A DNA stretch of 64,000 nt from Deltaproteobacteria bacterium (GTDB lineage: Bacteria; Desulfobacterota; Desulfomonilia; UBA1062), in the NCBI GenBank assembly GCA_018433775.1, contig JAHDQN010000040.1:20587-84586 (forward strand). The letters are read 5' to 3'. The notes below the pieces were generated by a model that had not been told where the DNA came from, did not search any database, and worked only from the letters and a program-made list of their open reading frames with translations. Positions 2,128-38,174 of this stretch are shown one piece after another. Each line of letters begins with the position of its first letter. Within the stretch, counting starts at the first letter, position 1. The position numbers were made by a program, and so were the translations under genes.

Positions 2128-2130
2128 GAT

Positions 2131-2985: not shown

Positions 2986-2995
2986 AATGCCTCCT

Positions 2996-3052: not shown

Positions 3053-3079
3053 AGCCTACCCATATAATTTTATCTGGCA

Positions 3080-3880: not shown

Positions 3881-3896
3881 AAATACTGCCCCCTAT

Positions 3897-9758: not shown

Positions 9759-10751
9759 TTATGCGCTCAGCTTCGACCCCGCGGGTGCCGGCACGTCGAC
9801 TTCCCTGATCCTGATGCCTCTGGCTTTGAGGGCCTGCCGGCCGGCCAGCAGGTCCCTGCCGGCGATCTTGTCGAGCACATAGATCAGGTTGCCGCCGCGC
9901 TCGGCGTATATCTGCCCGTACGAGATCGGGATCTCAGGGGAGGGGTCGTCGAGAATCGAGCGGGTGATCGGTTCGAGCTTGCGCTCGCCGTTGGCAAGGA
10001 GCATGACGGTCTTTGCCTTGTACACGAGCTCGGCCCCCATCGAGACGGCATACCGGGGAGAGTCTTTCTCGGTGGCGAAATGGCCGTCGGCCACCGCGTT
10101 GGCGACCGTGTTGCCGTCGAGCTTCACGAGCAGGACATTGCTTCCCTTAAAGGGGATGCCCGACTCATGGAAGGCCACGTGGCCCCTGCCGCCCACGCCG
10201 ATGACCTGCAGGTCGATGCCTCCGGCCTTGCGGATCTTGCGGGCATAGCCGTCCAGGATCTCTTTCCTGATCCACCCCAAATATGCGGAGTCCGGGTTGC
10301 TCCGGATGGCAACCGACTTCCCCTTGTCGGTCCCCCTCTCCTCCCAGTCCTGCGGGTTTGCCTTGAGCTCGGCCACGAGCTTTTTCTGCTCGATCAGCGC
10401 GCCGTAGGGCACGTTGGTCTCGATGAACTTGCCCTTGAGAAGGCTGAAGAACTCCTGAATCATAAAAAATGCATAGCTCTCGGGGTGCATGACGCGGAGC
10501 TGGGCGTTCTCGCCCGGCAGGCCCACGTACTCGTCCAGGTTGAAGCTCCGGCAGCGTTTCGAGTCGAACTCGCCCTGGTTCGCCGCCTGTGCGAGATGCT
10601 TGTAGAGCCCTGTGGGCGAGTTGCCCGTCGCAAGCCCCAGCACGGCCTCCTGCTTCTGTTTCAGCACCTGCTGGATTTTATCCTTGGCAATGTCCGCGGC
10701 AACCTCGCTCATCGAGGCAAAATCATCAGTTACGAAAATCTCGATTCCCAT
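9759..10751 (-). CDS. Glucosamine-6-phosphate deaminase/isomerase family protein (NagB-like, with insertion)
   Basis: 330 aa. Motifs are GLATGNSPTGLY and DLQVIGVGGRGHVAFHESG. An insertion of about 60 aa relative to classical NagB lies around residues 120-180. Confidence 0.75.
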   Translation of the reverse strand: MGIEIFVTDDFASMSEVAADIAKDKIQQVLKQKQEAVLGLATGNSPTGLYKHLAQAANQGEFDSKRCRSFNLDEYVGLPGENAQLRVMHPESYAFFMIQEFFSLLKGKFIETNVPYGALIEQKKLVAELKANPQDWEERGTDKGKSVAIRSNPDSAYLGWIRKEILDGYARKIRKAGGIDLQVIGVGGRGHVAFHESGIPFKGSNVLLVKLDGNTVANAVADGHFATEKDSPRYAVSMGAELVYKAKTVMLLANGERKLEPITRSILDDPSPEIPISYGQIYAERGGNLIYVLDKIAGRDLLAGRQALKARGIRIREVDVPAPAGSKLSA

Positions 10752-10794
10752 GGATCTCTCTCTCCTCTCTCGATCTTTCCTGATGTTCCGCGGA

Positions 10795-12165: not shown

Positions 12166-12212
12166 GTAAAATCCTCCTTTGATCGTGTGTTCAGCTGGAA
12201 ATAATTCTGCCC

Positions 12213-13436
12213 TTAAAACAACTGCAGGCCGGGCATGGCCTGGGAAACCGCCTTGGCGTGTGATGTAACGACGCTTTCCAGCCATGCCGTCCCTTGATCG
12301 GAAACATCCGCGGGCAGACCCTGGATGGTTTCGATGTAACCGTCCCGTCCTGCCTGCATCGCCCTGTTCAGCCCGCCCAGGAACTCATCTTTCAGCGTTT
12401 CCGCGTCTGAACCAGGGATTGTATCCATCTCAAACATCTCTTTGATTTTATCGCTATTTTTTGTGAACCCGTCCCCGAATTGGGGGGCGCGCTTGGCCAT
12501 TGCCTCGAGCCGCTTCAGGCGTTCCTTGCGGGCGAGCGAGAGCTTGTCGAGGAGGCCTGCGTGGATGAGGGGGCCGAACTCGACCGCGTCCAGGAAGGGC
12601 TTGCGCACGTGGACATACCACTCGCGCAGGGCCGCGAGGTTCGCCAGATAGAGGATGTTGTTCTCCACCACGCGCTTGAGGTTCGGGTACAGGGCCGGCT
12701 GATACTCCCTTACTCCGCCCGGGTGCGGCTCGACCGTGATCAGACAGTTGTCGTCCGGGCAGTCCTGCCTGAGCACCGAGCCCGCGGCCACGACGTTGCC
12801 GAACCCCATGCGGACCGGCCCAACGATCCCCCCCTGGCCTCCGAGGAAGATGGGCGGCCGGTTCAGCATCACGCCCCTGGGCACGTCGCCGAGCAGCGAG
12901 GGGGTCGTCTTGTCGCCGTCCGGGGTGAAGTTGAAGTGGATGTACGAGCTCCCCACCTCGCTGTGGTCCTTGCGGCTGGTTCCCCCGGCCATGAGGCAGT
13001 CGCAGAAGTTGATCAGGCTGCCCAGGGTCACGAAGGGGAAGAGTATGGTCTGCTTGAGCCCCACGCAGTGGGCACCGCCCGCCTCCTCCTCCAGGATCGA
13101 ACCCTCGCGGACATGGGCGCCCAGGCCCATGTTGGATCTGTCGAGGAACACCGACTTGCTGAAATAGCCGCCCTTGAGCTCCACGTCGCGGCCGATCTGG
13201 CAGTCCTCGATCGTGACCGGGCCTTCGCGGCCGATCTGCGCGCCCGATGAGATGACGGTCTTCTCGCCGTAGATCCTGCACCCGGGATAGATCCTGACGC
13301 CCTGCGCGGATATCCGCCCGATGTCGACCTCTTCCCCGATATCGAGGGTCAGGGGGTTGGGGAGATCGATCCCCTTCTCGAGCAACTGCACGATCTTCTC
13401 ATGGCATCGCGGCGTTATGTCCATCGGCACCTCCAT
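12213..13436 (-). CDS. Left-handed beta-helix (hexapeptide-repeat) protein, GlmU acetyltransferase-domain-like, with helical C-terminal extension
   Basis: Hexapeptide-type repeats run through IGRISAQGVRIYPGCRIYGEKTVISSGAQIGREGPVTIEDCQIGRDVELKG. The start is ATG 13436, or ATG 13424 with a GGAGGTG RBS. The track's upstream extension overlaps the preceding gene in another frame. Confidence 0.6.
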   Translation of the reverse strand: MEVPMDITPRCHEKIVQLLEKGIDLPNPLTLDIGEEVDIGRISAQGVRIYPGCRIYGEKTVISSGAQIGREGPVTIEDCQIGRDVELKGGYFSKSVFLDRSNMGLGAHVREGSILEEEAGGAHCVGLKQTILFPFVTLGSLINFCDCLMAGGTSRKDHSEVGSSYIHFNFTPDGDKTTPSLLGDVPRGVMLNRPPIFLGGQGGIVGPVRMGFGNVVAAGSVLRQDCPDDNCLITVEPHPGGVREYQPALYPNLKRVVENNILYLANLAALREWYVHVRKPFLDAVEFGPLIHAGLLDKLSLARKERLKRLEAMAKRAPQFGDGFTKNSDKIKEMFEMDTIPGSDAETLKDEFLGGLNRAMQAGRDGYIETIQGLPADVSDQGTAWLESVVTSHAKAVSQAMPGLQLF

Positions 13437-25337: not shown

Positions 25338-25353
25338 AGCGAAATCCGTGCCA
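25338..25353 (-). promoter_or_regulatory. Candidate sigma-54 (-24/-12) promoter of the glutamate synthase-glnA operon
   Basis: The minus strand reads TGGCACGGATTTCGCT. GG and GC have the correct spacing, with one mismatch to TGGCACG-N4-TTGC. It lies about 40 nt upstream of the proposed GTG start. Confidence 0.5.
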
Positions 25354-25516
25354 TGGGTGCGGGTCCTGTTCCTTTCCGGAGCATCGGATCAATTTTATTC
25401 CATCGATTCCAGGTATTACAAAATAACATTACCCGGCCGGCACCATGTCTGCATCCGGAATTTCCCGGCGGAGCCGGTTTCCAGTATTTTCCAATAATGT
25501 TCGATCAGATATGCTT

Positions 25517-25532
25517 TGCACAATTTTGTTCC
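25517..25532. promoter_or_regulatory. Near-palindromic candidate enhancer (UAS) site
   Basis: TGCACAATTTTGTTCC matches TGAACAATATTGTACC (33006-33021) at 13 of 16 positions. It lies about 170 bp upstream of the candidate sigma-54 promoter. Confidence 0.3.
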
Positions 25533-25784: not shown

Positions 25785-27041
25785 TCAGAACTCGGTGAGC
25801 TCCGGGCCTTTCACCCCGTTGAGGAATTCCTGCACGATCCCGACCCCCCGTTTGAAGTCCGGAAGCGTGGGGGTCAGGACCGAGAGCCGGATGTAATGCG
25901 ACCAGCGGGCACCGTAGATGTCTCCGGGCGTGATTCGGATACCCTGCTCCAGCAGCCTGTCCCGGCAGATCCGGCTGGGTATGGGCGTCCTGATCCACAC
26001 GCAGGCCCCCCCCGGCTCCCACGGCGTGTTCTGTTCGAGATAGGCGCTCCGCTGGGCGAGCTCGTGCCGCAGCCGTTCGATATGCCCGGTCAGCCTCGAC
26101 GAGGTGAACACCGTGAGCAGAGAGCGCTGCAGGATTCCCGAAAGCGAGAGGTCGTTGATCTCCTTGAGATCGAGAATGCTTCTCTGCATGGATTCCGGAA
26201 AGACCGCGAACCCCATGCGCAGACCCGGGCCCAGGACGTTGGAGAGGCTCTTGATGTAGATGACCCGCCCGCGGGTATCCCTGGCCTTTAAGGGGGTGAT
26301 TCCGACAACATCGGAAAGGGGATCGTCCTCGACGATGAAGAAGTTCTTGTCGGAAGCCATGGAGACGAGATCGTCCCGCAAATCTTCCGGCATGGATCTT
26401 CCGGTGGGGATGTGGCCCTGCGGCATGGTGTAGAGCAGGCGGATATCCATGCCTTTGATCCGATCGAGATCGTCTCGGCTCGCGATGCGGGGGACGAAAA
26501 CAACCTCGGCCCCGAGTGACTCGAAGATCCGTACGGCCCCCATGTATCCGGGATCCTCAACGGCCACGGCATCGCCCTTGCTCAGCAGGGAAAGGCCAAG
26601 CAGAAAGAGGGCCTGCTGGGAGCCCGAGGTGACGATCGGGGCGGCGTCGATCCCGGAAGACCTGAGCCATTTCCCGGCCTGCTCGCGCAGGGGCTCGTAC
26701 CCCTGGGGAGGGTCGTACGCGTTGAGCCCTTCGATGGTGAGCCTGAGATGCTGGCTCACCCAGAGCATCAGCTCCTCGGGCGGGCGGATCGCCGCCATGT
26801 CGATATCGCCCCCGGTCAGACTGTGCGCCACAAAGGTGCCCGCGCCCTGCCGGCTCACGACCAGGCCCTGTTCGAAAAGATACCGGTACACGTTTTTCGC
26901 CGTCACCATGCTGATGTTTTCGCTCCTGGCCAGCTCCCTTACGCCGGGCAGCCGCTCTCCCGGCGTCCTGTCCCTGAGGATGCCGTCTGCGAGCCTCCGG
27001 GCGATCTGTTTGTACCGCATGAGATTCTCCTTTTCCATCAT
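25785..27041 (-). CDS. pdxR: MocR/GntR-family regulator with aminotransferase-like domain, PdxR-like
   Basis: The N-terminal GntR wHTH is YKQIARRLADGILRDRTPGERLPGVRELARSENISMVTAKNVYRYLFEQGLV. The C-terminus is a fold-type I aminotransferase-like domain. It is divergent from pdxS across 65 bp. Confidence 0.75.
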   Translation of the reverse strand: MMEKENLMRYKQIARRLADGILRDRTPGERLPGVRELARSENISMVTAKNVYRYLFEQGLVVSRQGAGTFVAHSLTGGDIDMAAIRPPEELMLWVSQHLRLTIEGLNAYDPPQGYEPLREQAGKWLRSSGIDAAPIVTSGSQQALFLLGLSLLSKGDAVAVEDPGYMGAVRIFESLGAEVVFVPRIASRDDLDRIKGMDIRLLYTMPQGHIPTGRSMPEDLRDDLVSMASDKNFFIVEDDPLSDVVGITPLKARDTRGRVIYIKSLSNVLGPGLRMGFAVFPESMQRSILDLKEINDLSLSGILQRSLLTVFTSSRLTGHIERLRHELAQRSAYLEQNTPWEPGGACVWIRTPIPSRICRDRLLEQGIRITPGDIYGARWSHYIRLSVLTPTLPDFKRGVGIVQEFLNGVKGPELTEF

Positions 27042-27106
27042 GACAAATAGTGATACAGTTCTCTATTATCACAATTAATGTTATATAACAATAGGAGTTG
27101 ACCAAT

Positions 27107-27994
27107 ATGAGTGATATCAGTGAAAGAATCATCGTCAACCGTGGGCTGGCACAGATGCTCAAAGGCGGGGTGATCATGGACGTGACCACGGCGGATCAGG
27201 CCCGTATCGCCGAGGATTCCGGGGCCGTGGCGGTTATGGCCCTGGAGCGTGTCCCCGCGGATATCCGCGCCCAGGGCGGTGTCGCCCGGATGAGCGACCC
27301 TGCCGTTATCCGTGCCATCCAGGAGGCAGTGACCATCCCGGTCATGGCCAAGGTGAGGATCGGCCACCTGGTCGAGGCCCAGGTGCTCCAGGCGCTGAAG
27401 ATCGACTATATCGACGAGAGCGAGGTCCTGACGCCCGCGGACGAGAGCAACCACATCGACAAGCACGCCTTCGAGGTGCCGTTCGTGTGCGGCTGCCGCG
27501 ACCTGGGAGAGGCGGCGCGCCGGATCGGCGAGGGCGCGAGCATGATCCGGACCAAGGGAGAGGCAGGCACGGGAAACGTGGTGGAGGCCGTCAGGCACAT
27601 GCGCACCCTCATGGGACAGATCCGTATGCTGCTCTCGATGCGTGAAGACGAGGTCCCGGGATTTGCCAGGGAGATCGCGGCGCCCTTCGAGGTCCTTGCC
27701 GATATCAGGAAATCAGGGGCTCTTCCCGTGGTGAACTTTGCCGCGGGCGGCGTGGCCACCCCGGCGGATGCCGCTCTCATGATGCAGCTCGGGGCTGACG
27801 GCGTGTTCGTCGGGTCGGGCATCTTCAAGTCGGGCGACCCTGCCCGGCGTGCAAAGGCCATCGTGGAGGCCGTGGCCCACTGCGACGACCCCGCCTGGAT
27901 CGCACGGGTTTCCGAAGGCCTGGGCGAGGCCATGTCCGGCCTCGACGTGCGGACCATGCCCGAGGGCGAGCGGCTTGCCGGGCGGGGGCGGTGA
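27107..27994 (+). CDS. pdxS: Pyridoxal 5'-phosphate synthase lyase subunit
   Basis: [27 protein letters not shown]...[10 protein letters not shown]...[20 protein letters not shown]. The ATG at 27107 is 9 nt after GGAG. The track uses a TTG at 27098. Confidence 0.95.
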
Positions 27995-28602
27995 TGGTGA
28001 TCGGGATACTCGCACTCCAGGGAAACGTGCGCGAGCATATGACGAACCTGAACAGACACGACGTGCAGGGACGCCCCGTTCGCCTGCCCGCCGATCTCGC
28101 CGGGATCGAGGGCCTCATCCTTCCGGGTGGTGAGAGCACCGCCATGAGGAATCTCGTCTCGTCCTCCGGGCTCGAAAAACCCGTGGGCGATCTCATCCGA
28201 CAGGGTCTGCCCGTATGGGGAACCTGCGCCGGGGTCGTACTGCTGGCCCGGGGAGGGATCTGGTCCAGCGTCGATATCACGGTGGAGCGCAATGCCTACG
28301 GCTCCCAGGTCTTCAGCCGCCTGGTGCATGGAAGCTCGGCCCTCTCGGAAACGCCGACCCCCATGGTCTTCATCCGCTCGCCCCGGATCACCTCTGCGGG
28401 GCGTGAAGTCGAAGTCCTCGCCGAGGTCGGGGGGGATGTCGTGGCTGTACGGCAGGGCAATATCCTGCTCACGACCTTTCATCCCGAGCTGGTCGACCAC
28501 AGCCCCTTCACTGCCTGTTTCATCGAAATGGTGAGCTCGGCCCGCTCGGATGAAACACCGGTCCCAGGGCACTGCCCGAAAGAGACCGGCCGGGCAGTCT
28601 GA
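27994..28602 (+). CDS. pdxT: Pyridoxal 5'-phosphate synthase glutaminase subunit
   Basis: [15 protein letters not shown]...LILPGGESTAM...WGTCAGVVLLA. The start overlaps the pdxS stop (TGATG). Confidence 0.92.
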   Translation: MVIGILALQGNVREHMTNLNRHDVQGRPVRLPADLAGIEGLILPGGESTAMRNLVSSSGLEKPVGDLIRQGLPVWGTCAGVVLLARGGIWSSVDITVERNAYGSQVFSRLVHGSSALSETPTPMVFIRSPRITSAGREVEVLAEVGGDVVAVRQGNILLTTFHPELVDHSPFTACFIEMVSSARSDETPVPGHCPKETGRAV

Positions 28603-28707: not shown

Positions 28708-30228
28708 TCAGCTCTTTTTCGCCTTGAACCTGTCGACGTCGATCCCGTATTTCTCCACCTTGTACTGGATGATGCGCTTGGTGGTGCCCAGGACCCGCGC
28801 GGCCTTGCTCTGGTTTCCCTTTGCATCCTTGAGGGCATCGACGATAAGGGAGCGCTCGTAGGCGCCGATGAGGCTGGAGAGCTGGCCCTGCTTCTTCTTC
28901 GCCGGAGCCACCACCTTCATCTGCAGCGAGGGCGGCAGGTGCGTGCTGTCGATGGTGTCGCCGCCCGCGAGCAGCACGGCCCGCTCGATGCAGTTTTCCA
29001 GCTCCCGGACGTTCCCGGGCCAGTGATAGGCGAGGAGCGAGTCGATGGCAGGGGTCGAGATCCGCTTGATGTGTTTGCCGAACTCGTGAGCGTATTTCTC
29101 CACGAAGTAGTCGGCCAGGAGCAGGATATCGCCTCCCCGCTCCTTGAGGGCCGGCATGTAGACCGGAAACACGTTGAGACGGTAGTAGAGGTCGGAGCGG
29201 AAACGCCCCGAGGCCGCGTCCTGCTCCAGGTCGCGGTTCGTGGCGGCGATGATGCGCACGTTGACCTTGACCGTCCGGGTGGTGCCCAGGGGTTGGAACT
29301 GCCGCTCCTGGATCACGCGCAGCAGCTTGGCCTGCGCCAGGGGCGAGAGCTCGCCCACCTCGTCAAGGAAGATGGTGCCCCCGTGTGCCTCCTCGAAACG
29401 GCCCCTCCGGCGCTGGCTCGCACCGGTGAACGCGCCTTTCTCGTGCCCGAAAAGCTCGCTCTCGATCAGGGTGTCGGGCATGGCGGCGCAGTTCACCTCG
29501 ATGAAGGGTCCCGCGGCGCGGGGTGAGTTACGGTGAATGGCCCTGGCCACCAGCTCCTTTCCGGTGCCGGTCTCGCCGTGGATGAGAACCGTGGTGTTGG
29601 AATCCGCGACCTGGGAGATCAGCCCGAAGATCTCCTTCATGCCTTTCGAGTTGCCTACGATCTCGGAGGCCGGCCTCTGGGTCCTGCCCAGGATGTTTTT
29701 CAGCCGCCGGTTCTCTTCTTCGATTGCGCGCGTGTGCACCGCCTTGGCGATCAGGCCCGCCACCTCGGAGAGGTATCGGATCTCGTAGTCCTGGCTGTCG
29801 ACCTGCCGGGCCACCTTGTCGGCGGAGAGCACGCCCACGACCTTGCCGTCGTAGATGATGGGCACGCAGAGGAACGAGAGCTCGGAGCGGTCCAGGAACT
29901 TTCTGGCCCCGGTGCGGTCGAGAAAATGCTCCTCCTTGCCCAGGTTCGCGATCACCATGGGCTTGCCGGTCTGGGCCACCTGGCCCGTAATCCCCTCGCC
30001 CGGTTTGTAGGTGATGTCGAGGCCCTCGATGTCCACACCGTGGGCCAGATCCAGGATCGCCTCCCCCGTGTCCCGGTCGAGGATGGAGATCATGCCGCGG
30101 TCCATCCCGGTCTTCTCGCTCAGAGTCTCGAGCACCTGTTCGAGCTGTTCCCGCAAGTCAAGGGGGGTAGCGAGAATCCGGGCCAGATCGTGGAGAACAT
30201 CCAGGTCTTCGTACTCAAAAAGTGTCAT
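28708..30228 (-). CDS. Sigma-54-dependent transcriptional activator with N-terminal GAF domain (NifA-like architecture)
   Basis: The GAF region is DRGMISILDRDTGEA...ITGQVAQTGKPMVI. The AAA+ domain shows VLIHGETGTGKE and ESELFGHEKGAFTGA. The C-terminal Fis-type HTH is NQSKAARVLGTTKRIIQYKVEKYGI. Confidence 0.88.
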   Translation of the reverse strand: MTLFEYEDLDVLHDLARILATPLDLREQLEQVLETLSEKTGMDRGMISILDRDTGEAILDLAHGVDIEGLDITYKPGEGITGQVAQTGKPMVIANLGKEEHFLDRTGARKFLDRSELSFLCVPIIYDGKVVGVLSADKVARQVDSQDYEIRYLSEVAGLIAKAVHTRAIEEENRRLKNILGRTQRPASEIVGNSKGMKEIFGLISQVADSNTTVLIHGETGTGKELVARAIHRNSPRAAGPFIEVNCAAMPDTLIESELFGHEKGAFTGASQRRRGRFEEAHGGTIFLDEVGELSPLAQAKLLRVIQERQFQPLGTTRTVKVNVRIIAATNRDLEQDAASGRFRSDLYYRLNVFPVYMPALKERGGDILLLADYFVEKYAHEFGKHIKRISTPAIDSLLAYHWPGNVRELENCIERAVLLAGGDTIDSTHLPPSLQMKVVAPAKKKQGQLSSLIGAYERSLIVDALKDAKGNQSKAARVLGTTKRIIQYKVEKYGIDVDRFKAKKS

Positions 30229-30334
30229 ACGGCTTTTCCTTTATCGCTTTCGCGTCGTGTCTTCGCATCGCTCATACGGTTTTCTCCCGCGGAATCCCTT
30301 TCCCTCGTTGAAGGATCCGGAACCCGCCTCTTCC

Positions 30335-32923
30335 CTATCCTTCAAAAAAGCACACCACCTTCTGCTGCACCACATTCGAGACGATTCGCACCTTTTTGTC
30401 GCGTACATCGAAGACCCGGACCACGTCCCGGTATCTTCTCTCCTCGGGCAGAACCTTTTCCAGGATATCGGTAAGACCGTCCTGCCACGATGAGTTGTAG
30501 TACACATCCTCTTTCCAGGGGAAAATGGCCACGAAGAAGATCCGGTTCTCCACGAGGTCCTGGAAAAAGTGCGTGCCGTAGGAGAGCTCGGGCATGAGGT
30601 TGCCCTCGATGGATGCGATCTCTCCCAGGACCGTCATATTGCAGATCTCGGAGAAGTGTACCGGCACACCCAGGGAGGGCGTGGTGGTCCCCCACCTGCC
30701 GGGCCCCAGGAGCATGGTGGACAGGTCGGTGCGTACGGGAGCCTGCCGGTTCAGGATTCCCACCACCCGGCCGATGTCGTACTTCCGCTGCAGCGGGAGA
30801 TCCATATAGGCACGGGGCTCCACAGAGATGATGCGGTCGATGGACTGCGAGATGCTGCCTCCCATGAAGTTGCCGTTCATGCGGAACAGGACGTTCCTGT
30901 CGTCCACCTGCCCGGGAAACTCCACGGGCCTCTCCTCGCCGATGGTCTGCAGCGGCCGGCACTGGACCAGATTTATCCGGAATTCGTCCGGGCCCGTGAA
31001 ATTGATCGTGAACTCGATGTCGACGGGATAATCGTAGCCTTTCTCCAAAACCTTCATCATGGATTGCATCAGGGAGGGGAAATCGGAGCTGGAGAGGAAG
31101 TCGTCAAAGGTGATGATCCATGCATCGTGATCCTCCCTGCCGTACTCCCTGAGCCTTTGGCTCGCCTCGTCGTCGAACACAGCGATGCTCTGGAGGGGCA
31201 TGTCGATGCGCTCGCGGGCGAGACCTGCAAACGCACGGGTCTGGAGCTCGTTGTCGTGGATGTTGATCACGTCCACGCTGTGCTGGGAGAAGGCGCGCAG
31301 TTCGTCCATTCCGGCAAAGGGCCGTTTCAGGGGGTCGTCCAGGGCCACCAGCCGGGGATAGTCCCCTTCCACCCGGTCCACGGCCCGAGTTCCCAGACCG
31401 AGCACCATCCTGAGCATGCCTGCCTTCGGGTCCATGCCCTCCTTCCAGACAAAGGTGTTGTAGGACACCCCCACCCCGCCGATATCCGGGAAGAAATACG
31501 GCCCGCGGTAGGAGCCGGACACCCGCTGGACCAGCAGGGCCATCTGCTCGTCCTGGGATTCCAGCCCCCGCTGCCTGCGGTAGATAAGGGCGCTCTCGTC
31601 CATGGTGCTGGCGAAAATCCGCTTCACCGCAGCTTCGAACCCGGCATAGCGCTCCTCGGGCGAGCCCTGGTTCGCGCAGAAGACGCTCTCATACTTGCCG
31701 GCAAAGGCGTTGCCGAAGGAGTCTTCCAGCAGCGAGCTGGAGCGCACGATGATGGGCGACTGTCCGAAGTACTCGATAATCTGGTAGAAGTGCTCCTTGA
31801 TGTCGTCCGGGAACACCCCCTCGCGCATCCTCTCTGCGAGCACCGGCGCCATGCTGAAAAACCCCTCGGGCGTCTTCTGCTCCATGCGCAGCTTCCAGCA
31901 GCCGTTGTTGACGAGATAGGAATAAAAGACGTCGGAGCCGATGTAGAACGAGTCGTGAGGCTCCAGACGGTTGTCCCAGTCCCTGCCCGTGTCCTCGGCC
32001 AGGAGCTTCCGGGAGAGCAGGAGCCCCACGGTCTTGCCGCCGATGAAGCCCGATCCGATGAGGCGCGCCTTGATGTCCAGAAGATCCTCCAGACTCAGGT
32101 GCTCCTTGACCAGGGCGGACATCCGCGGATCGCGGGTGATCATGAGGTCGCAGAGCAGAGAGACCATCCGCCGCCGCTCCTGCTCCCCGGCATTGGACGG
32201 GGTCAGGCCCTCGGCCTCCATGAAGAGCCTGTCCCAGTAATCCAGGTTCCTCCTCGAGCTCTCCGTGAACCGCGACATGTGCGTGAAGAGCTTCGAGGCG
32301 TCAACGCTGCTGGTCACGGGCATGAACCTGTCCCCCTTTTCCAGGTGGGGCAGGAACATGGTGGGAGAATAGCGTTTCCAGACCTTCAGCGGCTGGACAT
32401 AGAAATCGCTGTCACAGTTGTAGGCATCCAGCAGAACCTGGGTGGTCTCCCTGATCCGCGCCACGGTTGCATAGGAATGACGGTTTCTCACCAGGGCGAA
32501 GTAGGCGACGGTCTTGAGCTCGAAGAGGTAGGGACAGGTGATGAGAAAGAAGTTTCCGATCATCAGGTCCGTGGCCCATGCCGAGAGCAGATCGGAAAGG
32601 CTGTCGAACACATAGTACGTCCCTTCCCCCTCGCCGGTGATGATCGTGTGCACCTGGGTGGAGAACGTCTCGAACCCCTGGTTCGAATCCAGGCGATGGA
32701 TGGTGAGACCTTCCCGGGGCCGCACCAGGGGCTCGTGCCGGGCGAAACGCATGTAGACGACCCGGTTGCGGTCATCGAGCGCCCTGGCCACGAACCGCTC
32801 CGCGATGCCCTGATAATCGCGGATGTCGTCAACCTGCCAGACCACGTTGTCGCCCGGCCGCAGCCAGTCGATGACGGGATCGAGGCCTTCGAGACCTGTA
32901 CTGACGTGATCGATCGCCTTCAT
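30335..32923 (-). CDS. PEP/pyruvate-binding (PPDK_N, ATP-grasp) domain protein with degenerate RecA/KaiC-like N-terminal domain
   Basis: The PPDK_N signature is SPIIVRSSSLLEDSFGNAFAGKYESVFC. The N-terminus TGLEGLDPVIDWLRPGDNVVWQVDD resembles KaiC/RAD55-like ATPases but has no GxxxxGK[ST] P-loop. I prefer the ATG at 32923 to the TTG at 32983. Confidence 0.65.
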   Translation of the reverse strand: MKAIDHVSTGLEGLDPVIDWLRPGDNVVWQVDDIRDYQGIAERFVARALDDRNRVVYMRFARHEPLVRPREGLTIHRLDSNQGFETFSTQVHTIITGEGEGTYYVFDSLSDLLSAWATDLMIGNFFLITCPYLFELKTVAYFALVRNRHSYATVARIRETTQVLLDAYNCDSDFYVQPLKVWKRYSPTMFLPHLEKGDRFMPVTSSVDASKLFTHMSRFTESSRRNLDYWDRLFMEAEGLTPSNAGEQERRRMVSLLCDLMITRDPRMSALVKEHLSLEDLLDIKARLIGSGFIGGKTVGLLLSRKLLAEDTGRDWDNRLEPHDSFYIGSDVFYSYLVNNGCWKLRMEQKTPEGFFSMAPVLAERMREGVFPDDIKEHFYQIIEYFGQSPIIVRSSSLLEDSFGNAFAGKYESVFCANQGSPEERYAGFEAAVKRIFASTMDESALIYRRQRGLESQDEQMALLVQRVSGSYRGPYFFPDIGGVGVSYNTFVWKEGMDPKAGMLRMVLGLGTRAVDRVEGDYPRLVALDDPLKRPFAGMDELRAFSQHSVDVINIHDNELQTRAFAGLARERIDMPLQSIAVFDDEASQRLREYGREDHDAWIITFDDFLSSSDFPSLMQSMMKVLEKGYDYPVDIEFTINFTGPDEFRINLVQCRPLQTIGEERPVEFPGQVDDRNVLFRMNGNFMGGSISQSIDRIISVEPRAYMDLPLQRKYDIGRVVGILNRQAPVRTDLSTMLLGPGRWGTTTPSLGVPVHFSEICNMTVLGEIASIEGNLMPELSYGTHFFQDLVENRIFFVAIFPWKEDVYYNSSWQDGLTDILEKVLPEERRYRDVVRVFDVRDKKVRIVSNVVQQKVVCFFEG

Positions 32924-33005
32924 GGAATTATCCCGTAGCACATTTCGATTCACTATTGAAGCCTGTTCATAGTTTTTCAACAATATTTAGCCCATTTATA
33001 TTCTT

Positions 33006-33021
33006 TGAACAATATTGTACC
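33006..33021. promoter_or_regulatory. Near-palindromic candidate enhancer (UAS) site upstream of amtB
   Basis: TGAACAATATTGTACC, with the perfect 10-bp palindrome ACAATATTGT at 33009-33018. A weaker copy, TCAACAATATTTAGCC, sits at 32977-32992. The site lies about 75 bp upstream of the sigma-54 promoter. Confidence 0.3.
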
Positions 33022-33086: not shown

Positions 33087-33102
33087 TGGCACCCCCCTTG
33101 CT
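33087..33102 (+). promoter_or_regulatory. Sigma-54 (-24/-12) promoter of amtB-glnK-glnD
   Basis: TGGCACCCCCCTTGCT is a perfect match to TGGCAC-N5-TTGCW. It lies about 47 nt upstream of the amtB ATG. Confidence 0.7.
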
Positions 33103-33148: not shown

Positions 33149-34354
33149 ATGATTTCTTCAGGTGATACCGCTTGGATGCTTGTCGCAACCGCACTGGTCA
33201 TGCTCATGACGCCGGGGCTCTCCCTGTTCTACGGAGGCCTCGTGCGCTCGAAGAACGTTCTGGGCACCATGATGCAGAGCTTCATCTGCCTGGGGCTGGT
33301 TTCCGTCCTCTGGATAGCTTATGGTTACAGCCTGGCCTTCTGCGGCGATGCGGGTGGAGTCATCGGCACCTTCCGGTGGGTCGGCCTTAAGGGGGTGGGG
33401 ATCGATGCCGGGCCTTATTCCGACACCATACCCCATCTGCTCTTCGCGGCCTTCCAGCTCATGTTCGCCATCATCACCCCGGCTCTGATCACCGGCGCGT
33501 TTGCCGAACGAATGAAATTCTCCGTGTTTCTCCTCTTTGTCATCCTCTGGAGCACGTTCGTGTATCTTCCGGTGTGCCACTGGGTCTGGGGCGGAGGCTG
33601 GCTGGGCAGGCTGGGAGCGCTCGACTTTGCCGGCGGCACGGTCATCCACGTCAACTCCGGCACGGCCGCACTGATGGCGGTCCTCGTCATCGGGAGGCGC
33701 AAAGGCTACAAAACCCAGCCCATCTATCCCCACAACCTTCCGCTCACCGTGCTCGGCGCATCGCTTCTGTGGTTCGGATGGTTCGGGTTCAATGCGGGCA
33801 GCGCCCTGGCAGCAAACGGAACCGCCACCCTGGCGTTCTTTACCACACAGGTCGCCACTGGCACCGCGGCGCTCTCGTGGATCCTGGCCGAAAAGATCAT
33901 CCGGGGAAAACCCACCACCTTGGGAGCGGTGTCCGGGGCGGTTGCCGGCCTGGTAGCCATCACCCCGGCGGCAGGGTTCGTGGGACCTGTCTCGGCGATC
34001 ATCATCGGCTTCGTGGCGGGAATCCTCTGCTATCTGGCGGTACTGCTCAAGGAGCGGATCGGGTACGACGACTCTCTCGACGTGGTGGCTGTCCACGGCA
34101 TCGGAGGTCTCTGGGGGGCGCTCGCCACCGGTCTGTTCGCTTCGGTGGGGGCCAGCGGCCTGTTCTTTGGGAATGCCCATCAGTTCTTCGTCCAGATAAT
34201 CGGTGCAGGCAGCGCGATCATCTACTCGGGCATTGTCACCACGATCATCCTCCTGGTGCTGAAATACACCGTGGGCCTGCGGGTGAGCGAGGAAGAGGAG
34301 ATCCAGGGCCTGGATGTGAGCCAGCACAACGAATCCGGATACGCTATCCGCTGA
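33149..34354 (+). CDS. amtB: Ammonium transporter
   Basis: 401 aa from the ATG at 33149 (AAAGGAGA RBS): MISSGDTAWMLVATALVMLMTPGLSLFYGGLVR...DFAGGTVIHVNSG...VHGIGGLWGA. The track's upstream extension is rejected. Confidence 0.95.
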   Translation: MISSGDTAWMLVATALVMLMTPGLSLFYGGLVRSKNVLGTMMQSFICLGLVSVLWIAYGYSLAFCGDAGGVIGTFRWVGLKGVGIDAGPYSDTIPHLLFAAFQLMFAIITPALITGAFAERMKFSVFLLFVILWSTFVYLPVCHWVWGGGWLGRLGALDFAGGTVIHVNSGTAALMAVLVIGRRKGYKTQPIYPHNLPLTVLGASLLWFGWFGFNAGSALAANGTATLAFFTTQVATGTAALSWILAEKIIRGKPTTLGAVSGAVAGLVAITPAAGFVGPVSAIIIGFVAGILCYLAVLLKERIGYDDSLDVVAVHGIGGLWGALATGLFASVGASGLFFGNAHQFFVQIIGAGSAIIYSGIVTTIILLVLKYTVGLRVSEEEEIQGLDVSQHNESGYAIR

Positions 34355-34432
34355 TGTGTCCGGACAGTGATGATATCCGGGTCGTACCGGCAGGGGCAAC
34401 GGGATCACGAGCGATGCAACCAGACAGAATAG

Positions 34433-34789
<357 letters not shown>

Positions 34790-34816
34790 GGCCTCGCCGG
34801 CACAGATCGGAGAAAT

Positions 34817-37300
34817 ATGGACGAACCGATGGACAGCGCTGTGAGCGGCCCTGGTCTCGCCCGGGAACTCTCCTCCCGGGCGGACCGGCATATCCGCACC
34901 CTCTTTGACTCGTGCCGACCCCAGGCAATGAGCAGATGGAGCATCGTCGCACTGGGAGGATACGGGAGGCAGGAGATCTGTCCGTTTTCCGATCTCGACA
35001 TCCTCTTTCTCCTGGAGAAAAAGCCTGCGGCACAGGAGATCGAGAACACCCTGAAGGAAACGCTCTACCCCCTGTGGGATGCCGGATTCAACGCCAGCTA
35101 CAGCGTCAGGACCATACACGAGGTTCTCCTTGACGCCCGGTCGGATTTTTTCTTCCATACCTCGCTTCTCGACGCGCGCCACATCTGCGGCTCGGAGACG
35201 GCATACCGGAAGTGCATGCGTGTCCTCGCCTCAGACCGGTCTCTCAACGACGGCAGACAGTTCATCTCCCGGCTGTCGTTCCATACCCGGAAAAGACACG
35301 AGAAGTTCGGTGACGCCTCCTATTTCCTCGAGCCGCACATCAAAGACGGCAGGGGAGGATTGAGAGATCACCAGAGTATCGTCTGGATAGAAAAGGTCCT
35401 GAAGAACGGCCGCAGCGGATTCGCCCCGCTCATCATTCCCGCCGACCGCAGGGAGCTCGACGCCGCAGCGGAATTCATGCTGAAATCCCGGTTCATGCTC
35501 CACAGGCTCGCCGAGGGAAAAACAGACCGGCTGCACCTGGAATACCAGGAGGACCTCGCCGGGATATTGGGATATGGCCCGCGTTCGGGGGAGAGCCCGG
35601 TGGAGGTTTTCCTGCGGGAGTTTCACCTCAGGGCCGTAACCGTACGCACCGTGCTCGACACCATGCTGCGTTTTCTGGACCGGCCCCGGGGCATCCGGTC
35701 TTTCCTGAACAGGAAGAAATGCGATGGACGGTTCATCCTGTTCTCCGGCCTGTTGTCGTTTTTCCGCCCCGAGGAATTGAAAGACGACCCGCTCATCGTC
35801 ATGTCCGCCTTTGTGAAAATGGCGCGCGAGGGCCTTTCCCTGACGCCGGAGGCACGATCGCAGATTAAGAGCCTGAGCGAATACGACACCCCTCTGAAGG
35901 AGAGCGTCGAGGGGTGTTCGGACCTGCTGCACATCCTCCGGAGCCCGGGTGCGGAAAACACCCTGACCTCGATGCTCGAAACCGGTGTTCTGGAGCAGCT
36001 CGTCCCGGAATTCAGCGCAATACGCGGCAGGACCATCTTCGACGTTTACCATACCCATACCGTGGACCTGCACAGCATCCGCACCGTATGCGAGCTGAAC
36101 GGGCTGAAGGACGATGAACAGGGTGTCCTTGCGCGTGTCACCGATCTCGAGGTCCTGTACTTCAGCGCCTTTTTCCACGACATTGGCAAGGGTTATTCCA
36201 AGCCCCATACCGACTCCGGCGCGGAAATCGTCCGCGCCGTGGCCCCGCGGTTCGGGTTCGATCATGACCGGACCGAGCTTGCAGCCTTTCTCGTGAAAAA
36301 CCACCTGATCATGCCGGAGCTCGCTTACGGGCGCGATCTTTCCGAGGAAAAGGTGGTCAGCTCTCTTGCCCGGCTGGTCGCGACCCCCCGGAGGCTCTCC
36401 ATGCTGTACCTCCTGAGCGTGGCGGACTCGCGTGCAACCGGGCCCGAAGCCTGGAACGAATGGAAAGCCGCACTCCTCCGCGAGCTCTATACCCGGACGA
36501 TCAACATCCTTGAGAAAGGGCTGTTCAAAGATCCCGAAAACGCCATGCGCCTGGAGGAGAAATGGCATCGGCTCATCCGGGAGGCAGAGGGTAACGAAAA
36601 CATGTCGGGCCGGCTCTGGGCATTACCCCAGGCGTACATCCTGGCCGGGAATCTGAAAGACATCAAGCGTCACCTGGCCGTAAGCTCAACTCTCTCCGGA
36701 AGGGACGACCTGATCGTGGAGACAGACCGCCGCGCGGGCCATGTTCTCGTCACCTTCATCACCCGCGATCGTCCCGGTCTGTTCTCGCTGCTCGCAGGCC
36801 TTCTCGCCATCAACCGCCTCGAGATCATCTCCGCAAAGATATTTACCTGGTACGACGGTACCGTGATAGACACATTCATGGTAATCACGCCATGGCCCGA
36901 CTACCGGGGATTCAACTCCATGCACCATCAGTTCAGGGACGTTCTCTCCGGGAAGATCAGGCTGGAAGACCGGATCATGCGGATCAAGCCTCTGCGCACC
37001 ACCGGTGACCCCGGAACGGTTCCCTCCGAAGATGCCGCATCCGTTGCTATCGACAACGACACCTCCGACTTCTTCACCATCATCCATGTGCAGGCATGCC
37101 GCAGGGCCGGGCTCATTCACGATCTTTCCCGCGCCCTCAGCTCTCTCGATCTAGACATTCACCGGGCTTTCCTCACGCGCACGTCCGATCTCGTGACCGG
37201 TGTTTTCTACGTGGTGGACAAGGATGGGGAAAAACTATGGGGGGAAAAGGAACAAAACGAGGTTCTCCGGGCTATTCGCGAGGTGATCGGTACCGGTTGA
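34817..37300 (+). CDS. glnD: [Protein-PII] uridylyltransferase/uridylyl-removing enzyme
   Basis: 827 aa. The nucleotidyltransferase motif is GGYGRQEICPFSDLDILFL, the HD domain shows FFHDIGKG, and there are two C-terminal ACT-like regions. Confidence 0.9.
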   Translation: MDEPMDSAVSGPGLARELSSRADRHIRTLFDSCRPQAMSRWSIVALGGYGRQEICPFSDLDILFLLEKKPAAQEIENTLKETLYPLWDAGFNASYSVRTIHEVLLDARSDFFFHTSLLDARHICGSETAYRKCMRVLASDRSLNDGRQFISRLSFHTRKRHEKFGDASYFLEPHIKDGRGGLRDHQSIVWIEKVLKNGRSGFAPLIIPADRRELDAAAEFMLKSRFMLHRLAEGKTDRLHLEYQEDLAGILGYGPRSGESPVEVFLREFHLRAVTVRTVLDTMLRFLDRPRGIRSFLNRKKCDGRFILFSGLLSFFRPEELKDDPLIVMSAFVKMAREGLSLTPEARSQIKSLSEYDTPLKESVEGCSDLLHILRSPGAENTLTSMLETGVLEQLVPEFSAIRGRTIFDVYHTHTVDLHSIRTVCELNGLKDDEQGVLARVTDLEVLYFSAFFHDIGKGYSKPHTDSGAEIVRAVAPRFGFDHDRTELAAFLVKNHLIMPELAYGRDLSEEKVVSSLARLVATPRRLSMLYLLSVADSRATGPEAWNEWKAALLRELYTRTINILEKGLFKDPENAMRLEEKWHRLIREAEGNENMSGRLWALPQAYILAGNLKDIKRHLAVSSTLSGRDDLIVETDRRAGHVLVTFITRDRPGLFSLLAGLLAINRLEIISAKIFTWYDGTVIDTFMVITPWPDYRGFNSMHHQFRDVLSGKIRLEDRIMRIKPLRTTGDPGTVPSEDAASVAIDNDTSDFFTIIHVQACRRAGLIHDLSRALSSLDLDIHRAFLTRTSDLVTGVFYVVDKDGEKLWGEKEQNEVLRAIREVIGTG

Positions 37301-37394: not shown

Positions 37395-38174
37395 ATGCTG
37401 AGCAAGAGGATCATCGTATGCCTCGATGTGAGGGACGGGAAGACCACCAAGGGGGTCAGGTTCGAGGGCAACGTGGATATCGGCGACCCGGTGACCATGG
37501 CCAGGGAATACTACGAGCAGGGCGTGGACGAGCTCGTCTTCTACGACATCACGGCGTCGCACGAGAGGCGGGACATCATGATCGACGTGGTCGATCGCGT
37601 GGCCCGCGAGATCTTCATCCCCTTCTCCGTGGGCGGCGGCATCAGGAGCGTCGACGATATGTATCGGGCCCTTGACGCTGGGGCCGAGAAGATCAGCGTG
37701 AACTCGGCCGCGGTGCGCAGCCCGGACATCATCTCCCAGGGTGCCTGCCACTTCGGAAGCCAGTGCATCGTGCTCGGGATGGACGCCAGAAAGGTGCCGG
37801 CCTCACCCGCCATACCCTCGGGCTATGAGGTGGCGATCAACGGCGGCAGGACCTTCACGGGCATGGACGCCCTGCAGTGGGCCAGGAAGGCCCAGGACCT
37901 GGGTGCCGGAGAGATCTGCCTGAACTCCATCGACGCCGACGGCACCAACGACGGCTACGAGCTCGACCTCACCGGCATGATCTCGCGCAGCGTGGGCATT
38001 CCGGTCATCGCCTCGGGCGGGGCAGGCAGGCCGGAACATCTGCGCGACGTCTTCCTCCAGGCCGATGCCGATGCCGCGCTCATCGCCTCCATGGTCCACT
38101 TCGGCCGCTACACCATCCCGGGTATCAAGGCCTTTCTTAAAAACGCCCACATTCCGGTGCGCGACGTGGTCTGA
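37395..38174 (+). CDS. hisF: Imidazole glycerol phosphate synthase cyclase subunit
   Basis: [55 protein letters not shown]...VGGGIRS...IASGGAG. Confidence 0.93.

What the first reader, a model, noticed from the sequence alone, without database searches (positions are those of the whole stretch)
28708..32923. Operon pairing a PEP/pyruvate-binding-domain protein (degenerate KaiC-like N-terminus) with a GAF-sigma-54 activator, a possible non-canonical nitrogen signalling pair
The 862-aa protein has a PPDK_N ATP-grasp signature (IVRSSSLLEDSFGNAFAGKYES). Its N-terminal RecA/KaiC-like fold lacks a Walker A motif, and I could not find a classical phosphohistidine swivel motif (GGxTSHAA). It lies immediately upstream of, and co-oriented with, a NifA-like GAF/AAA+/HTH activator, and is divergent from amtB-glnK-glnD. 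By position it occupies the place an NtrB-type sensor would hold. It might modify or sense metabolites (ATP, PEP, 2-oxoglutarate) to control the activator. That role is speculation.
Basis: inference. Interest (0 to 1): 0.5.

Follow-up and report, generated by a model that had tools for sequence, protein, structure and literature searches.

The report
Uncharacterised ATP-grasp protein in nitrogen clusters
A large, strongly conserved protein of unknown function (dead KaiC-like domain, intact PEP-synthase-type ATP-binding domain, novel C-terminal domain) is co-transcribed with the likely master activator of ammonium assimilation and sits in nitrogen or glutamine gene clusters in several anaerobic phyla, so it is a good candidate for an undescribed part of bacterial nitrogen control.

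Summary
Window 30335-32923 (-) encodes an 862-aa protein. It has a KaiC/RecA-fold N-domain with no Walker A, an intact PPDK_N ATP-grasp domain, and a family-specific C-terminal domain. It is followed on the same strand by a NifA-type GAF/AAA+/HTH activator and is divergent from amtB-glnK-glnD.

The pair recurs in about 30 of 80 related genome loci from at least two phyla. It occurs in both gene orders and is often translationally coupled. A perfect sigma-54 promoter with tandem ACA-N4-TGT sites precedes the divergent amtB operon in both phyla. One subgroup fuses a NifA-type GAF directly to the large protein.

However, the protein is not NtrB-like and is not tied to this activator. In 67 of 80 loci it lies among nitrogen-assimilation genes (GDH, GOGAT, GS, amtB-glnK, carAB), next to different regulators (the activator, NrpR, LysR) or none. 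A divergent gut/rumen clade still shows glutamine-amidotransferase neighbours, but more weakly (21 of 80).

No canonical phosphohistidine swivel domain was detected. A nearly invariant GTH motif is only a candidate. I favour an ATP-driven regulatory phosphotransferase linked to glutamine/2-oxoglutarate status. The rival is a small-molecule dikinase at the glutamine node. I found no published description.

The parts
30335..32923 (-). Gene for the 862-aa 'PPDK-like' protein (PPDKL), whole ORF with stop codon
   Evidence: ORF and translation. A 100% identical protein exists in public data. Pfam gives PPDK_N only.
32045..32923 (-). PPDKL residues 1-293: KaiC/RecA-fold pseudo-ATPase domain (about residues 1-225) plus helical linker. 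No Walker A.
30923..32044 (-). PPDKL residues 294-667: PPDK_N-type ATP-grasp domain with conserved nucleotide-site residues
30335..30922 (-). PPDKL residues 668-862: family-specific C-terminal domain with GPGRWGTTTP and ELSxGTHFFQDLVE motifs (H785 is a candidate catalytic residue)
   Evidence: Conservation. No Pfam hit. No PDB sequence hit with a profile. hhalign against phosphohistidine swivel domains gives probability 0.2-0.3%.
28708..30228 (-). NifA-type enhancer-binding protein: GAF (residues 23-165), AAA+ with GAFTGA (residues 190-356), HTH_8 (residues 458-494)
   Evidence: Pfam and NCBIfam. GAFTGA and Walker A are read in the translation.
32952..32980 (-). Sigma-70-like promoter (TTGAAA-17-AATAGT) upstream of PPDKL. 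The likely start of a PPDKL-activator operon.
   Evidence: Consensus scan only. No sigma-54 promoter lies on this strand.
32980..33018 (.). Tandem candidate activator sites ACAATATTTA (32980-32989) and ACAATATTGT (33009-33018), 29 bp apart, in the shared intergenic region
   Evidence: ACA-N4-TGT recurs at about -90 and -120 from the sigma-54 promoter in the Planctomycetota-type loci and at -78 to -80 here, in L003 and in L005. There are 31 matches in 21 regions of 200 nt against 1.3 expected (maximum 7 in 1000 shuffles). Binding by the activator is inferred.
33087..33102 (+). Perfect sigma-54 promoter TGGCAC-N5-TTGCT for amtB-glnK-glnD
   Evidence: The only zero-mismatch match in the window. 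An equivalent promoter is at the same place in related loci.
33149..37300 (+). amtB (33149-34354), glnK (34451-34789), glnD (34817-37300): the divergent target operon
   Evidence: Pfam and NCBIfam. Start codon and RBS read from sequence.
25338..25529 (-). Second candidate regulon promoter: sigma-54-like TGGCACGGATTTCGCT (25338-25353) with ACAAAATTGT (25520-25529) and ACATTATTGG (25491-25500), 29 bp apart, upstream of the GOGAT-glnA-carA cluster
   Evidence: The same promoter is in L003. Function is inferred.

Best explanation
PPDKL belongs to a large uncharacterised family. It has three parts: a KaiC-fold domain that has lost its nucleotide site, a PEP-synthase/PPDK-type ATP-grasp domain whose ATP-site residues are intact, and a family-specific C-terminal domain with a nearly invariant His (H785).

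In this window it is probably transcribed from a sigma-70-type promoter together with a NifA-type GAF/AAA+/HTH activator. That activator most likely binds tandem ACA-N4-TGT sites. It would then switch on the divergent sigma-54 promoter of amtB-glnK-glnD and a second sigma-54 promoter in front of the GOGAT-glnA-carA cluster.

My best reading is that PPDKL is an ATP-driven regulatory phosphotransferase coupled to glutamine/2-oxoglutarate (nitrogen) status. That would make it comparable in role, though not in ancestry, to EI-Ntr, GlnD or NifL. It would work with whichever nitrogen regulator the lineage uses, which here is the co-transcribed activator.

Shown: the architecture, conservation of the ATP site, the gene contexts, the promoter and site conservation, and the GAF fusion.
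Inferred: catalysis, the signal, the target, and any contact with the activator.
For: - Architecture and intact ATP site.
- Tight pairing with the activator in two gene orders and at least two phyla.
- The activator-PPDKL operon lacks a sigma-54 promoter, while the divergent amtB operon has a perfect one with conserved tandem sites. This is the usual layout of regulator genes facing their target.
- A NifA-type GAF is fused to PPDKL in about 1055-aa variants, with E 9e-41 to this activator's GAF. That GAF is weakly related to the PtsP GAF. The EI-Ntr GAF binds glutamine and gates autophosphorylation (PMC4848567).
- PPDKL is adjacent to NrpR in 13 loci and directly follows glnK in L070.
- A RelA/SpoT-like synthetase lies beside it in 7 loci of a divergent clade.
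- 67 of 80 loci carry core nitrogen-assimilation genes, none of which leaves an obvious pathway gap for a new enzyme.
- The window itself is a glutamine-enzyme supercluster.
Against: - There is no biochemical or genetic evidence of any kind.
- More than half of the loci lack an adjacent regulator. There the gene sits in apparent operons with enzymes: GDH>PPDKL, GltB-GltD>PPDKL, CarB>PPDKL>GltB.
- It is 56-60% identical across phyla over 860 aa. That is more typical of a central enzyme than of a sensor.
- No phosphohistidine swivel domain was detected, so the phosphotransfer route is unknown.
- The tandem-double relatives have no nitrogen context.
- In a divergent gut/rumen clade only 21 of 80 loci show nitrogen or glutamine neighbours.
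- The 80 loci come from MAGs and are not phylogenetically independent.
Confidence: 0.42

Rival explanations
1. PPDKL is a metabolic dikinase or kinase acting on a small molecule of the glutamine/glutamate/2-oxoglutarate node. It would resemble L-glutamine kinase Cj1418, which was once annotated as PEP synthase/PPDK. On this reading PPDKL is simply a member of the nitrogen regulon, not a regulator.
For: - The ATP site is intact and sequence conservation is very high.
- It sits in apparent operons with GDH, GOGAT and carAB, overlapping carB by 11 nt in L086.
- Glutamine-amidotransferase neighbours appear in the window and in the divergent clade: NadE, class-II GATase, GATase-I.
- There is a precedent for a PPDK-superfamily enzyme phosphorylating glutamine (PMC10971088 and PMC6429109).
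- ACA-N4-TGT-type palindromes lie upstream of PPDKL in some loci that lack the activator, L038 and L058. That would suit a regulated target gene.
Against: - No conserved partner genes would consume an unusual product. In Campylobacter, by contrast, Cj1416 and Cj1417 follow Cj1418.
- Central ammonium assimilation has no known missing ATP-dependent step (my knowledge).
- The GAF fusion, the pseudo-KaiC domain and the translational coupling to a transcription factor fit signalling better.
- I could not compare the sequence with Cj1418.
Confidence: 0.3
2. PPDKL is the dedicated sensor or anti-activator of the adjacent activator, in the position of NtrB or NifL, and has no role apart from it.
For: - Conserved adjacency and translational coupling with the activator.
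- The regulator-type layout facing the sigma-54 target operon.
- The GAF-PPDKL fusion as a Rosetta-stone hint.
- nifL-nifA are also translationally coupled (my knowledge).
Against: - About 50 of 80 loci have PPDKL without this activator within 7-10 kb. There it is paired with GDH, NrpR, LysR, GOGAT or carAB.
- In loci with GAF-PPDKL, a full-length activator with its own GAF is still present (L008, L042).
- There are no kinase or PAS domains.
Confidence: 0.12
3. PPDKL is an ordinary PEP synthase/PPDK paralogue for gluconeogenesis or anaplerosis, and its neighbours are coincidental.
For: The PPDK_N domain. Databases name it 'phosphoenolpyruvate synthase' in Geobacter sp. OR-1.
Against: - There is no PEP-utilizers or PEP-utilizers_C domain.
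- It scores 52 bits or less against PpsA, PPDK and RPH models whose cutoffs are 456-1700 bits.
- 67 of 80 loci have nitrogen neighbours in at least six different arrangements.
Confidence: 0.03

Closest known systems
Rifampin phosphotransferase, PEP synthase and PPDK (PPDK_N dikinase superfamily)
   Different: No detectable swivel phosphohistidine domain and no PEP/pyruvate TIM-barrel. It carries an extra N-terminal KaiC-fold pseudo-ATPase and a family-specific C-terminal domain. Its context is nitrogen assimilation, not gluconeogenesis or antibiotic resistance.
KaiC, RecA and FlaH-type ATPases, and degenerate relatives such as BcsE and Elp4-6
   Different: Walker A is absent in every family member checked. 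The domain is therefore probably a scaffold or a binding or oligomerisation module, not an ATPase.
EI-Ntr (PtsP) of the nitrogen PTS
   Same: In the about 1055-aa variants a NifA/PtsP-type GAF precedes a phosphotransferase-superfamily enzyme. The setting is nitrogen/glutamine. In some loci a RelA/SpoT-like gene lies alongside, recalling the EI-Ntr to SpoT signalling of Caulobacter.
   Different: EI-Ntr uses PEP and has the swivel His and PEP-binding domains but no ATP-grasp. PPDKL has the ATP-grasp and lacks both. Any similarity is functional analogy, not homology outside the GAF.
NifL-NifA and NtrB-NtrC regulatory pairs
   Same: A large nucleotide-binding protein is co-transcribed, often translationally coupled, with a sigma-54 activator that faces its nitrogen target operon.
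   Different: No PAS, HisKA or GHKL domains. The activator has GAF rather than a receiver domain. PPDKL also occurs widely without the activator.
L-glutamine kinase Cj1418 (Campylobacter jejuni)
   Same: A PPDK/PEP-synthase-like enzyme whose substrate is glutamine. This shows the superfamily can act at the glutamine node.
   Different: Cj1418 works in capsule phosphoramidate synthesis with dedicated downstream enzymes. I could not compare sequences. The only hint is a weak NCBIfam hit to PRK05849 (21 bits), whose identity with Cj1418 I could not verify.
GlnD and GlnE (large covalent-modification enzymes of nitrogen control)
   Same: Size, nucleotide use and position inside nitrogen gene clusters. 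This is a possible analogous role.
   Different: They have an unrelated fold (nucleotidyltransferases). glnD is itself present in this window, so PPDKL is not simply its replacement.

Membership tests
PEP synthase / PPDK (pyruvate dikinases) | N-terminal PPDK_N ATP-grasp nucleotide-binding domain | tested here: met
PEP synthase / PPDK (pyruvate dikinases) | Swivel phosphohistidine domain (PEP-utilizers, GGxTSHAA) | tested here: not met
   No Pfam hit at E<=10. A profile search of PDB finds none. hmmsearch --max against E. coli PpsA and PtsI finds nothing. hhalign probability is 0.2-0.3%. No GG..[ST]H motif. A fold-level test of the C-domain alone was not possible.
PEP synthase / PPDK (pyruvate dikinases) | C-terminal PEP/pyruvate-binding TIM barrel (PEP-utilizers_C) and a curated equivalog score | tested here: not met
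   No such Pfam hit. Best NCBIfam PpsA score is 52 bits against a cutoff of 883.
Rifampin phosphotransferase / PigC-type | ATP-grasp, substrate-binding domain and C-terminal swivel His domain; curated model score | tested here: not met
   RPH model 28 bits against 999, PigC 35 against 1300. The structural match covers the ATP-grasp only.
KaiC / RecA-superfamily ATPases | RecA-like core fold | tested here: met
KaiC / RecA-superfamily ATPases | Walker A P-loop (GxxxxGK[ST]) | tested here: not met
   Absent in the window protein and in all 65 aligned relatives. The P-loop position reads GDNVVWQVDD.
NtrB-type sensor histidine kinase / NifL | HisKA (or PAS) and HATPase_c/GHKL domains | tested here: not met
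   Pfam finds PPDK_N only. No GHKL or PAS matches in the fold searches.
NifA (nif-specific activator) - for the 506-aa neighbour | GAF + sigma-54 AAA+ (GAFTGA) + Fis-type HTH architecture | tested here: met
   Pfam GAF, Sigma54_activat and HTH_8. GAFTGA is read in the translation.
NifA (nif-specific activator) - for the 506-aa neighbour | Curated equivalog score and association with nif genes | tested here: not met
   TIGR01817 scores 518.7 against a cutoff of 528.85. No nif gene among the annotated window ORFs. The candidate site ACA-N4-TGT differs from the NifA UAS TGT-N10-ACA, which has no match in the upstream regions.
EI-Ntr (PtsP)-like nitrogen phosphotransferase | N-terminal NifA/PtsP-type GAF fused to the phosphotransferase | tested here: inconclusive
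   Absent in the window protein. Present in about 1055-aa relatives, with E 9e-41 to the window activator's GAF and E 3e-4 to the E. coli PtsP GAF.
EI-Ntr (PtsP)-like nitrogen phosphotransferase | PEP-dependent autophosphorylation on the swivel His, gated by glutamine/2-OG | not testable with these tools
   Needs biochemistry. The EI domains are absent by sequence.

The most novel reading that the evidence does not exclude
PPDKL is an unrecognised signal enzyme of nitrogen control in anaerobic phyla (Desulfobacterota-like, Planctomycetota, Omnitrophota, Spirochaetota, gut and rumen taxa). It would be an ATP-driven counterpart of EI-Ntr, GlnD or GlnE that reads glutamine/2-oxoglutarate. It would read the signal through a GAF domain, either in cis or borrowed from the co-translated activator. 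It would then phosphorylate or gate nitrogen regulators or enzymes (the activator, PII, GDH, GS), using a new kind of phospho-acceptor domain built around the GTH motif.
Probability: 0.2. Interest if true: 0.85.

Novelty: new variant of a known kind. Interest (0 to 1): 0.6.

Why it matters
Nitrogen control is textbook material for enterobacteria (GlnD/PII/NtrBC/GlnE), cyanobacteria and methanogens. It is poorly known for most anaerobic phyla.

This is a family of several hundred 50%-identity clusters. It is about 57-60% identical between phyla and sits inside ammonium-assimilation clusters, yet it is annotated only as 'PEP/pyruvate-binding domain protein'.

If it is regulatory, it adds a new player and perhaps a new phosphotransfer chemistry to nitrogen signalling. 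It would also explain how NifA-type activators that lack NtrB or NifL are controlled. If it is metabolic, it points to an unknown ATP-dependent reaction at the glutamine node.

Separately, the work yields a testable regulon: a GAF activator, tandem ACA-N4-TGT sites and sigma-54 promoters, conserved between phyla.

Tried and rejected
1. A single-sequence AlphaFold model was useless (pLDDT 35). The MSA-based model was used instead.
2. Hand alignment suggested the C-terminal domain is a divergent PEP-utilizers swivel domain, with GTH matching TSH. Pfam at E<=10, a PDB profile search, hmmsearch --max against E. coli PpsA/PtsI and two hhalign runs gave no support. The idea is kept only as a candidate.
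3. The afdb50 fold library was unavailable.
4. Six literature searches were run. Four looked for any description of this family or pairing and found none. Two others gave only analogies: glutamine kinase and EI-Ntr. The primary glutamine-kinase papers are not held.
5. The NifA UAS TGT-N10-ACA has no match in any upstream region.
6. The NrpR operator GGAA-N6-TTCC is essentially absent upstream of PPDKL in loci of the NrpR type.
7. An HPr-like motif that I read by eye in a 513-aa neighbour (cluster c22) got no Pfam support.
8. The tandem-double relatives (about 1470-1500 aa) were examined as a clue to function. Their contexts are unrelated to each other and to nitrogen.
9. The glutamine-kinase (Cj1418) relationship could not be tested for lack of the sequence.

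Full report
**What is there**

On the minus strand, 30335-32923 encodes an 862-aa protein and 28708-30228 encodes a 506-aa protein. The two genes are 106 nt apart, and no terminator-like site lies between them.

The large protein has a single Pfam match, PPDK_N, at residues 294-667 with E 1.4e-46. Neither flank matches anything, even at E<=10. All curated NCBIfam models for PEP synthase, PPDK, rifampin phosphotransferase and PigC/RedH score far below their cutoffs, the best being 52 bits against 883.

The small protein has GAF, a sigma-54 AAA+ domain with GAFTGA, and HTH_8. It scores just below the NifA equivalog cutoff, 518.7 against 528.85.

amtB, glnK and glnD lie divergently on the plus strand.

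**Structure of the large protein (here called PPDKL)**

A single-sequence model failed. A model built from 45 relatives is good, with pLDDT 83.9 and pTM 0.79.
- Foldseek agrees.
- No Walker A exists in the first 300 residues of this protein or of 65 relatives.
- In relatives down to 30% identity, K297, R394-S397, E400 and D401 are invariant. E637, Q654, R656, the GPGRxGT loop and H785 are at least 90% conserved. I assign the first group to the ATP site from my knowledge of PPDK and RPH. On that basis the ATP-grasp looks catalytically competent.

The C-terminal 195 residues carry the motif ELSxGTHFFQDLVE. I suspected a divergent swivel phosphohistidine domain. Pfam, a PDB profile search, hmmsearch --max against E. 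coli PpsA/PtsI and two hhalign runs all gave no support, with probability 0.2-0.3%. So a defining feature of dikinases was tested by sequence and not met. A fold-level test of that domain alone remains to be done.

**Size of the family**

The full protein finds more than 8000 sequences. Those from MAGs labelled Deltaproteobacteria, Planctomycetota, Omnitrophota, Spirochaetota and others are 56-60% identical.

The N-domain alone finds 913 clusters at 50% identity with E<=1e-3, and 187 with E<=1e-30. Among the 150 best listed hits, the full-length ones (about 825-920 aa) carry the domain at their N-terminus. The one exception is the tandem-double protein P0009.

Two variants exist:
- A form of about 1055 aa with an N-terminal GAF.
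- Tandem doubles of about 1470-1500 aa.

**Gene neighbourhoods**

I clustered ORFs within 7 kb of the gene in 80 genome loci and named the clusters with Pfam. In 67 of 80 loci there is at least one core nitrogen-assimilation gene nearby.

| Neighbour | Loci |
|---|---|
| GDH | 36 |
| This type of GAF activator (ORF clustering) | 25 |
| This type of GAF activator (tblastn, within the +/-10 kb flanks) | about 30 |
| GlnK | 19 |
| AmtB | 18 |
| GltB | 16 |
| NrpR | 13 |
| GS-I | 10 |
| GltD-like | 9 |
| CarAB | 6 |
| GS-III | 6 |

There are at least six arrangements:
- activator>PPDKL>, divergent from amtB-glnK-GS-gltB (Planctomycetota type).
- PPDKL>activator>, divergent from amtB-glnK (the window's clade).
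- LysR< GDH>PPDKL>.
- PPDKL> <NrpR <GDH.
- GltB>GltD>PPDKL>.
- CarA>CarB>PPDKL>GltB>GltD> (Omnitrophota).

The junctions are tight:
- A 3-nt spacer between the activator's stop codon and the PPDKL ATG in most Planctomycetota-type loci.
- A 4-nt overlap in L004.
- 0-15 nt after carB in Omnitrophota.
- An 11-nt overlap with carB in L086.

The window itself fits this picture. Between 4312 and 25392 on the minus strand lie pyrG, carB, a GlmM-like gene, a GlmS-like gene, carA, glnA and a split GOGAT. pdxST and a hisF-like gene are also nearby. Nearly all of these encode glutamine-using enzymes.

**A harder test on a divergent clade**

I fetched 80 metagenome loci of a clade only 41-46% identical to its own query and about 38% identical to the window protein. 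Many appear to come from gut or rumen samples. The flanks are short, with medians of 2.6 and 3.7 kb.
- 14 loci have assimilation genes nearby.
- 21 loci qualify once glutamine amidotransferases are counted (glutamine-dependent NadE, class-II GATase, GATase-I/C26, an AmtB-PII fusion).
- A RelA/SpoT-like gene is adjacent in 7 loci.

The association therefore weakens here but keeps the same theme. The tandem-double variants show no nitrogen context at all.

**The activator and its targets**

The only perfect TGGCAC-N5-TTGC in the window is at 33087-33102 (+). It lies 47 nt upstream of the likely amtB start at ATG 33149. Related loci carry an equivalent promoter at the same position on the amtB side, not in front of the activator-PPDKL operon.

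Upstream of these promoters I found tandem ACA-N4-TGT sites with AT-rich centres, 29-30 bp apart.
- They sit at about -90 and -120 in the Planctomycetota-type loci.
- They sit at -78 to -80 here, in L003 and in L005, with a degenerate second copy in the window.
- There are 31 matches in 21 regions of 200 nt, against 1.3 expected and a maximum of 7 in 1000 shuffles.

The same pair, 29 bp apart, sits upstream of a one-mismatch sigma-54 promoter at 25338-25353 (-). That promoter precedes the GOGAT-glnA cluster.

I infer that the GAF activator is the main activator of ammonium assimilation in this organism. It takes the role of NtrC, but has NifA architecture and a site unlike either. The NifA UAS TGT-N10-ACA has no match in these regions. 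PPDKL's own promoter looks sigma-70-like and overlaps the first site, which would allow autoregulation. That last point is inference.

**How PPDKL most likely works**

Points in favour of a regulatory role:
- It is co-transcribed and often translationally coupled with a transcription factor facing its target.
- It neighbours NrpR, glnK and a RelA/SpoT-like gene.
- Its scaffold is a pseudo-KaiC domain.
- In one subgroup it is fused to a GAF 38% identical to this activator's GAF, E 9e-41. In those loci the activator keeps its own GAF.

That GAF class is distantly related to the GAF of EI-Ntr. The EI-Ntr GAF binds glutamine and gates autophosphorylation (PMC4848567). An ATP-driven analogue of EI-Ntr is therefore the closest working model.

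Points in favour of a metabolic role:
- Very high sequence conservation.
- Operons with GDH, GOGAT and carAB.
- The precedent of Cj1418, a 'PEP synthase/PPDK' that is in fact an L-glutamine kinase (PMC10971088 and PMC6429109).

Against the metabolic view, no conserved partner genes would use an unusual product.

I put the regulatory phosphotransferase at 0.42, the small-molecule enzyme at 0.30, a strictly activator-dedicated NtrB/NifL-like partner at 0.12, and an ordinary PEP synthase paralogue at 0.03. The remainder is left to explanations I have not considered. All of the mechanism is inference. Nothing here shows catalysis, a target, or contact with the activator.

**Comparison with known systems, and novelty**

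- PPDKL is not a PEP synthase or PPDK, because two of three defining domains are not met.
- It is not an active KaiC-type ATPase.
- It is not a histidine kinase.
- It shares one domain with the dikinase superfamily and one fold with KaiC, in an arrangement I did not find described.
- Four literature searches for the family or the pairing found nothing, though the held library is incomplete.

I rate it a new variant of a known kind, with moderate to high interest. It is widespread, strongly constrained and embedded in a textbook pathway. It can be tested directly with standard biochemistry and a sigma-54 reporter.

**Caveats**

- The loci come mostly from MAGs and are not independent, since many Planctomycetota share synteny.
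- ORFs were called mechanically.
- 'Best 80' sampling favours close relatives.
- Promoter and site calls are pattern matches.

Noticed in passing
window 1-4200: There is a sharp composition break. GC is about 0.33-0.46 up to about 4100 and then about 0.61-0.65 for the rest of the window. The low-GC part holds an RNase_T-like exonuclease (2131-2985, -) and an ORF with no Pfam hit (3080-3880, -). No tRNA gene is found anywhere in the window. This could be a foreign island or an assembly chimera.
   Followed up: partly
window 4312-25392 (-), 27098-28602 (+), 37395-38174 (+): A 'glutamine supercluster': pyrG, carB, a GlmM-like mutase, a 1243-aa GATase_6+SIS (GlmS-like) protein, carA, glnA and a split archaeal-type GOGAT (a Glu_synthase+Fer4 subunit and a GXGXG+GltD-like fusion). 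pdxS/pdxT and a hisF-like gene are also present. Nearly every gene encodes a glutamine-using or glutamine-making enzyme.
   Followed up: partly
window 25338-25529 (-): A second sigma-54-like promoter (TGGCACGGATTTCGCT) has the same tandem ACA-N4-TGT-type sites 29 bp apart. It lies upstream of a gene starting at GTG 25299 (Met-Cys-Arg..., no Pfam hit) that heads the GOGAT-glnA cluster. The same promoter is present in L003.
   Followed up: partly
L011, L013, L014, L020, L022-L027, L033, L039, L045, L048, L052 (about 90 and 120 nt upstream of the sigma-54 promoter): A candidate enhancer motif, wACA-N4-TGTw, is conserved between phyla. It occurs as two copies 29-30 bp apart and is distinct from the NifA (TGT-N10-ACA) and NtrC sites. 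Similar 14-bp palindromes (GAACAAATTTGTTC) lie just upstream of PPDKL in L038 and L058, which lack a nearby activator.
   Followed up: partly
window 25785-27041 (-) and 27098-28602 (+): A MocR/PdxR-like GntR-aminotransferase regulator is divergent from pdxS-pdxT. This is the classic PdxR arrangement, wedged between the activator and the GOGAT cluster.
   Followed up: no
window 43633-46422 (-): A 929-aa ORF combines a transaldolase domain with a phosphoglucose isomerase domain (TAL-PGI fusion).
   Followed up: no
L085 (Geobacter sp. OR-1, 9001-13419), L087, L088/L089: Tandem-double PPDKL relatives (about 1470-1500 aa) have a first copy without the KaiC-like domain and a second copy with substitutions in conserved motifs (RLSS for RSSS, APGRLG for GPGRWG in P0007). 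Their contexts are unrelated to nitrogen. In Geobacter sp. OR-1 the gene lies between an alpha-amylase-family gene and pgi.
   Followed up: partly
L092, L105, L115, L123, L131, L137, L141: In the divergent gut/rumen clade a roughly 330-aa RelA/SpoT-domain protein (small alarmone synthetase-like) lies next to or near PPDKL. This recalls the glutamine to EI-Ntr to SpoT link in Caulobacter.
   Followed up: no
L137 8324-10132 (+): AmtB and PII are fused into one 602-aa ORF (Ammonium_transp + P-II), near PPDKL.
   Followed up: no
L011, L013, L020, L022, L024, L025, L033, L045, L052 (for example L025 7262-8065, -): A conserved roughly 267-aa ORF with no Pfam hit is the first gene after the sigma-54 promoter, ahead of amtB, in Planctomycetota-type loci. 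Its sequence looks like a signal peptide followed by a beta-rich region, so it may be an outer-membrane channel for ammonium. This was judged by eye only.
   Followed up: no
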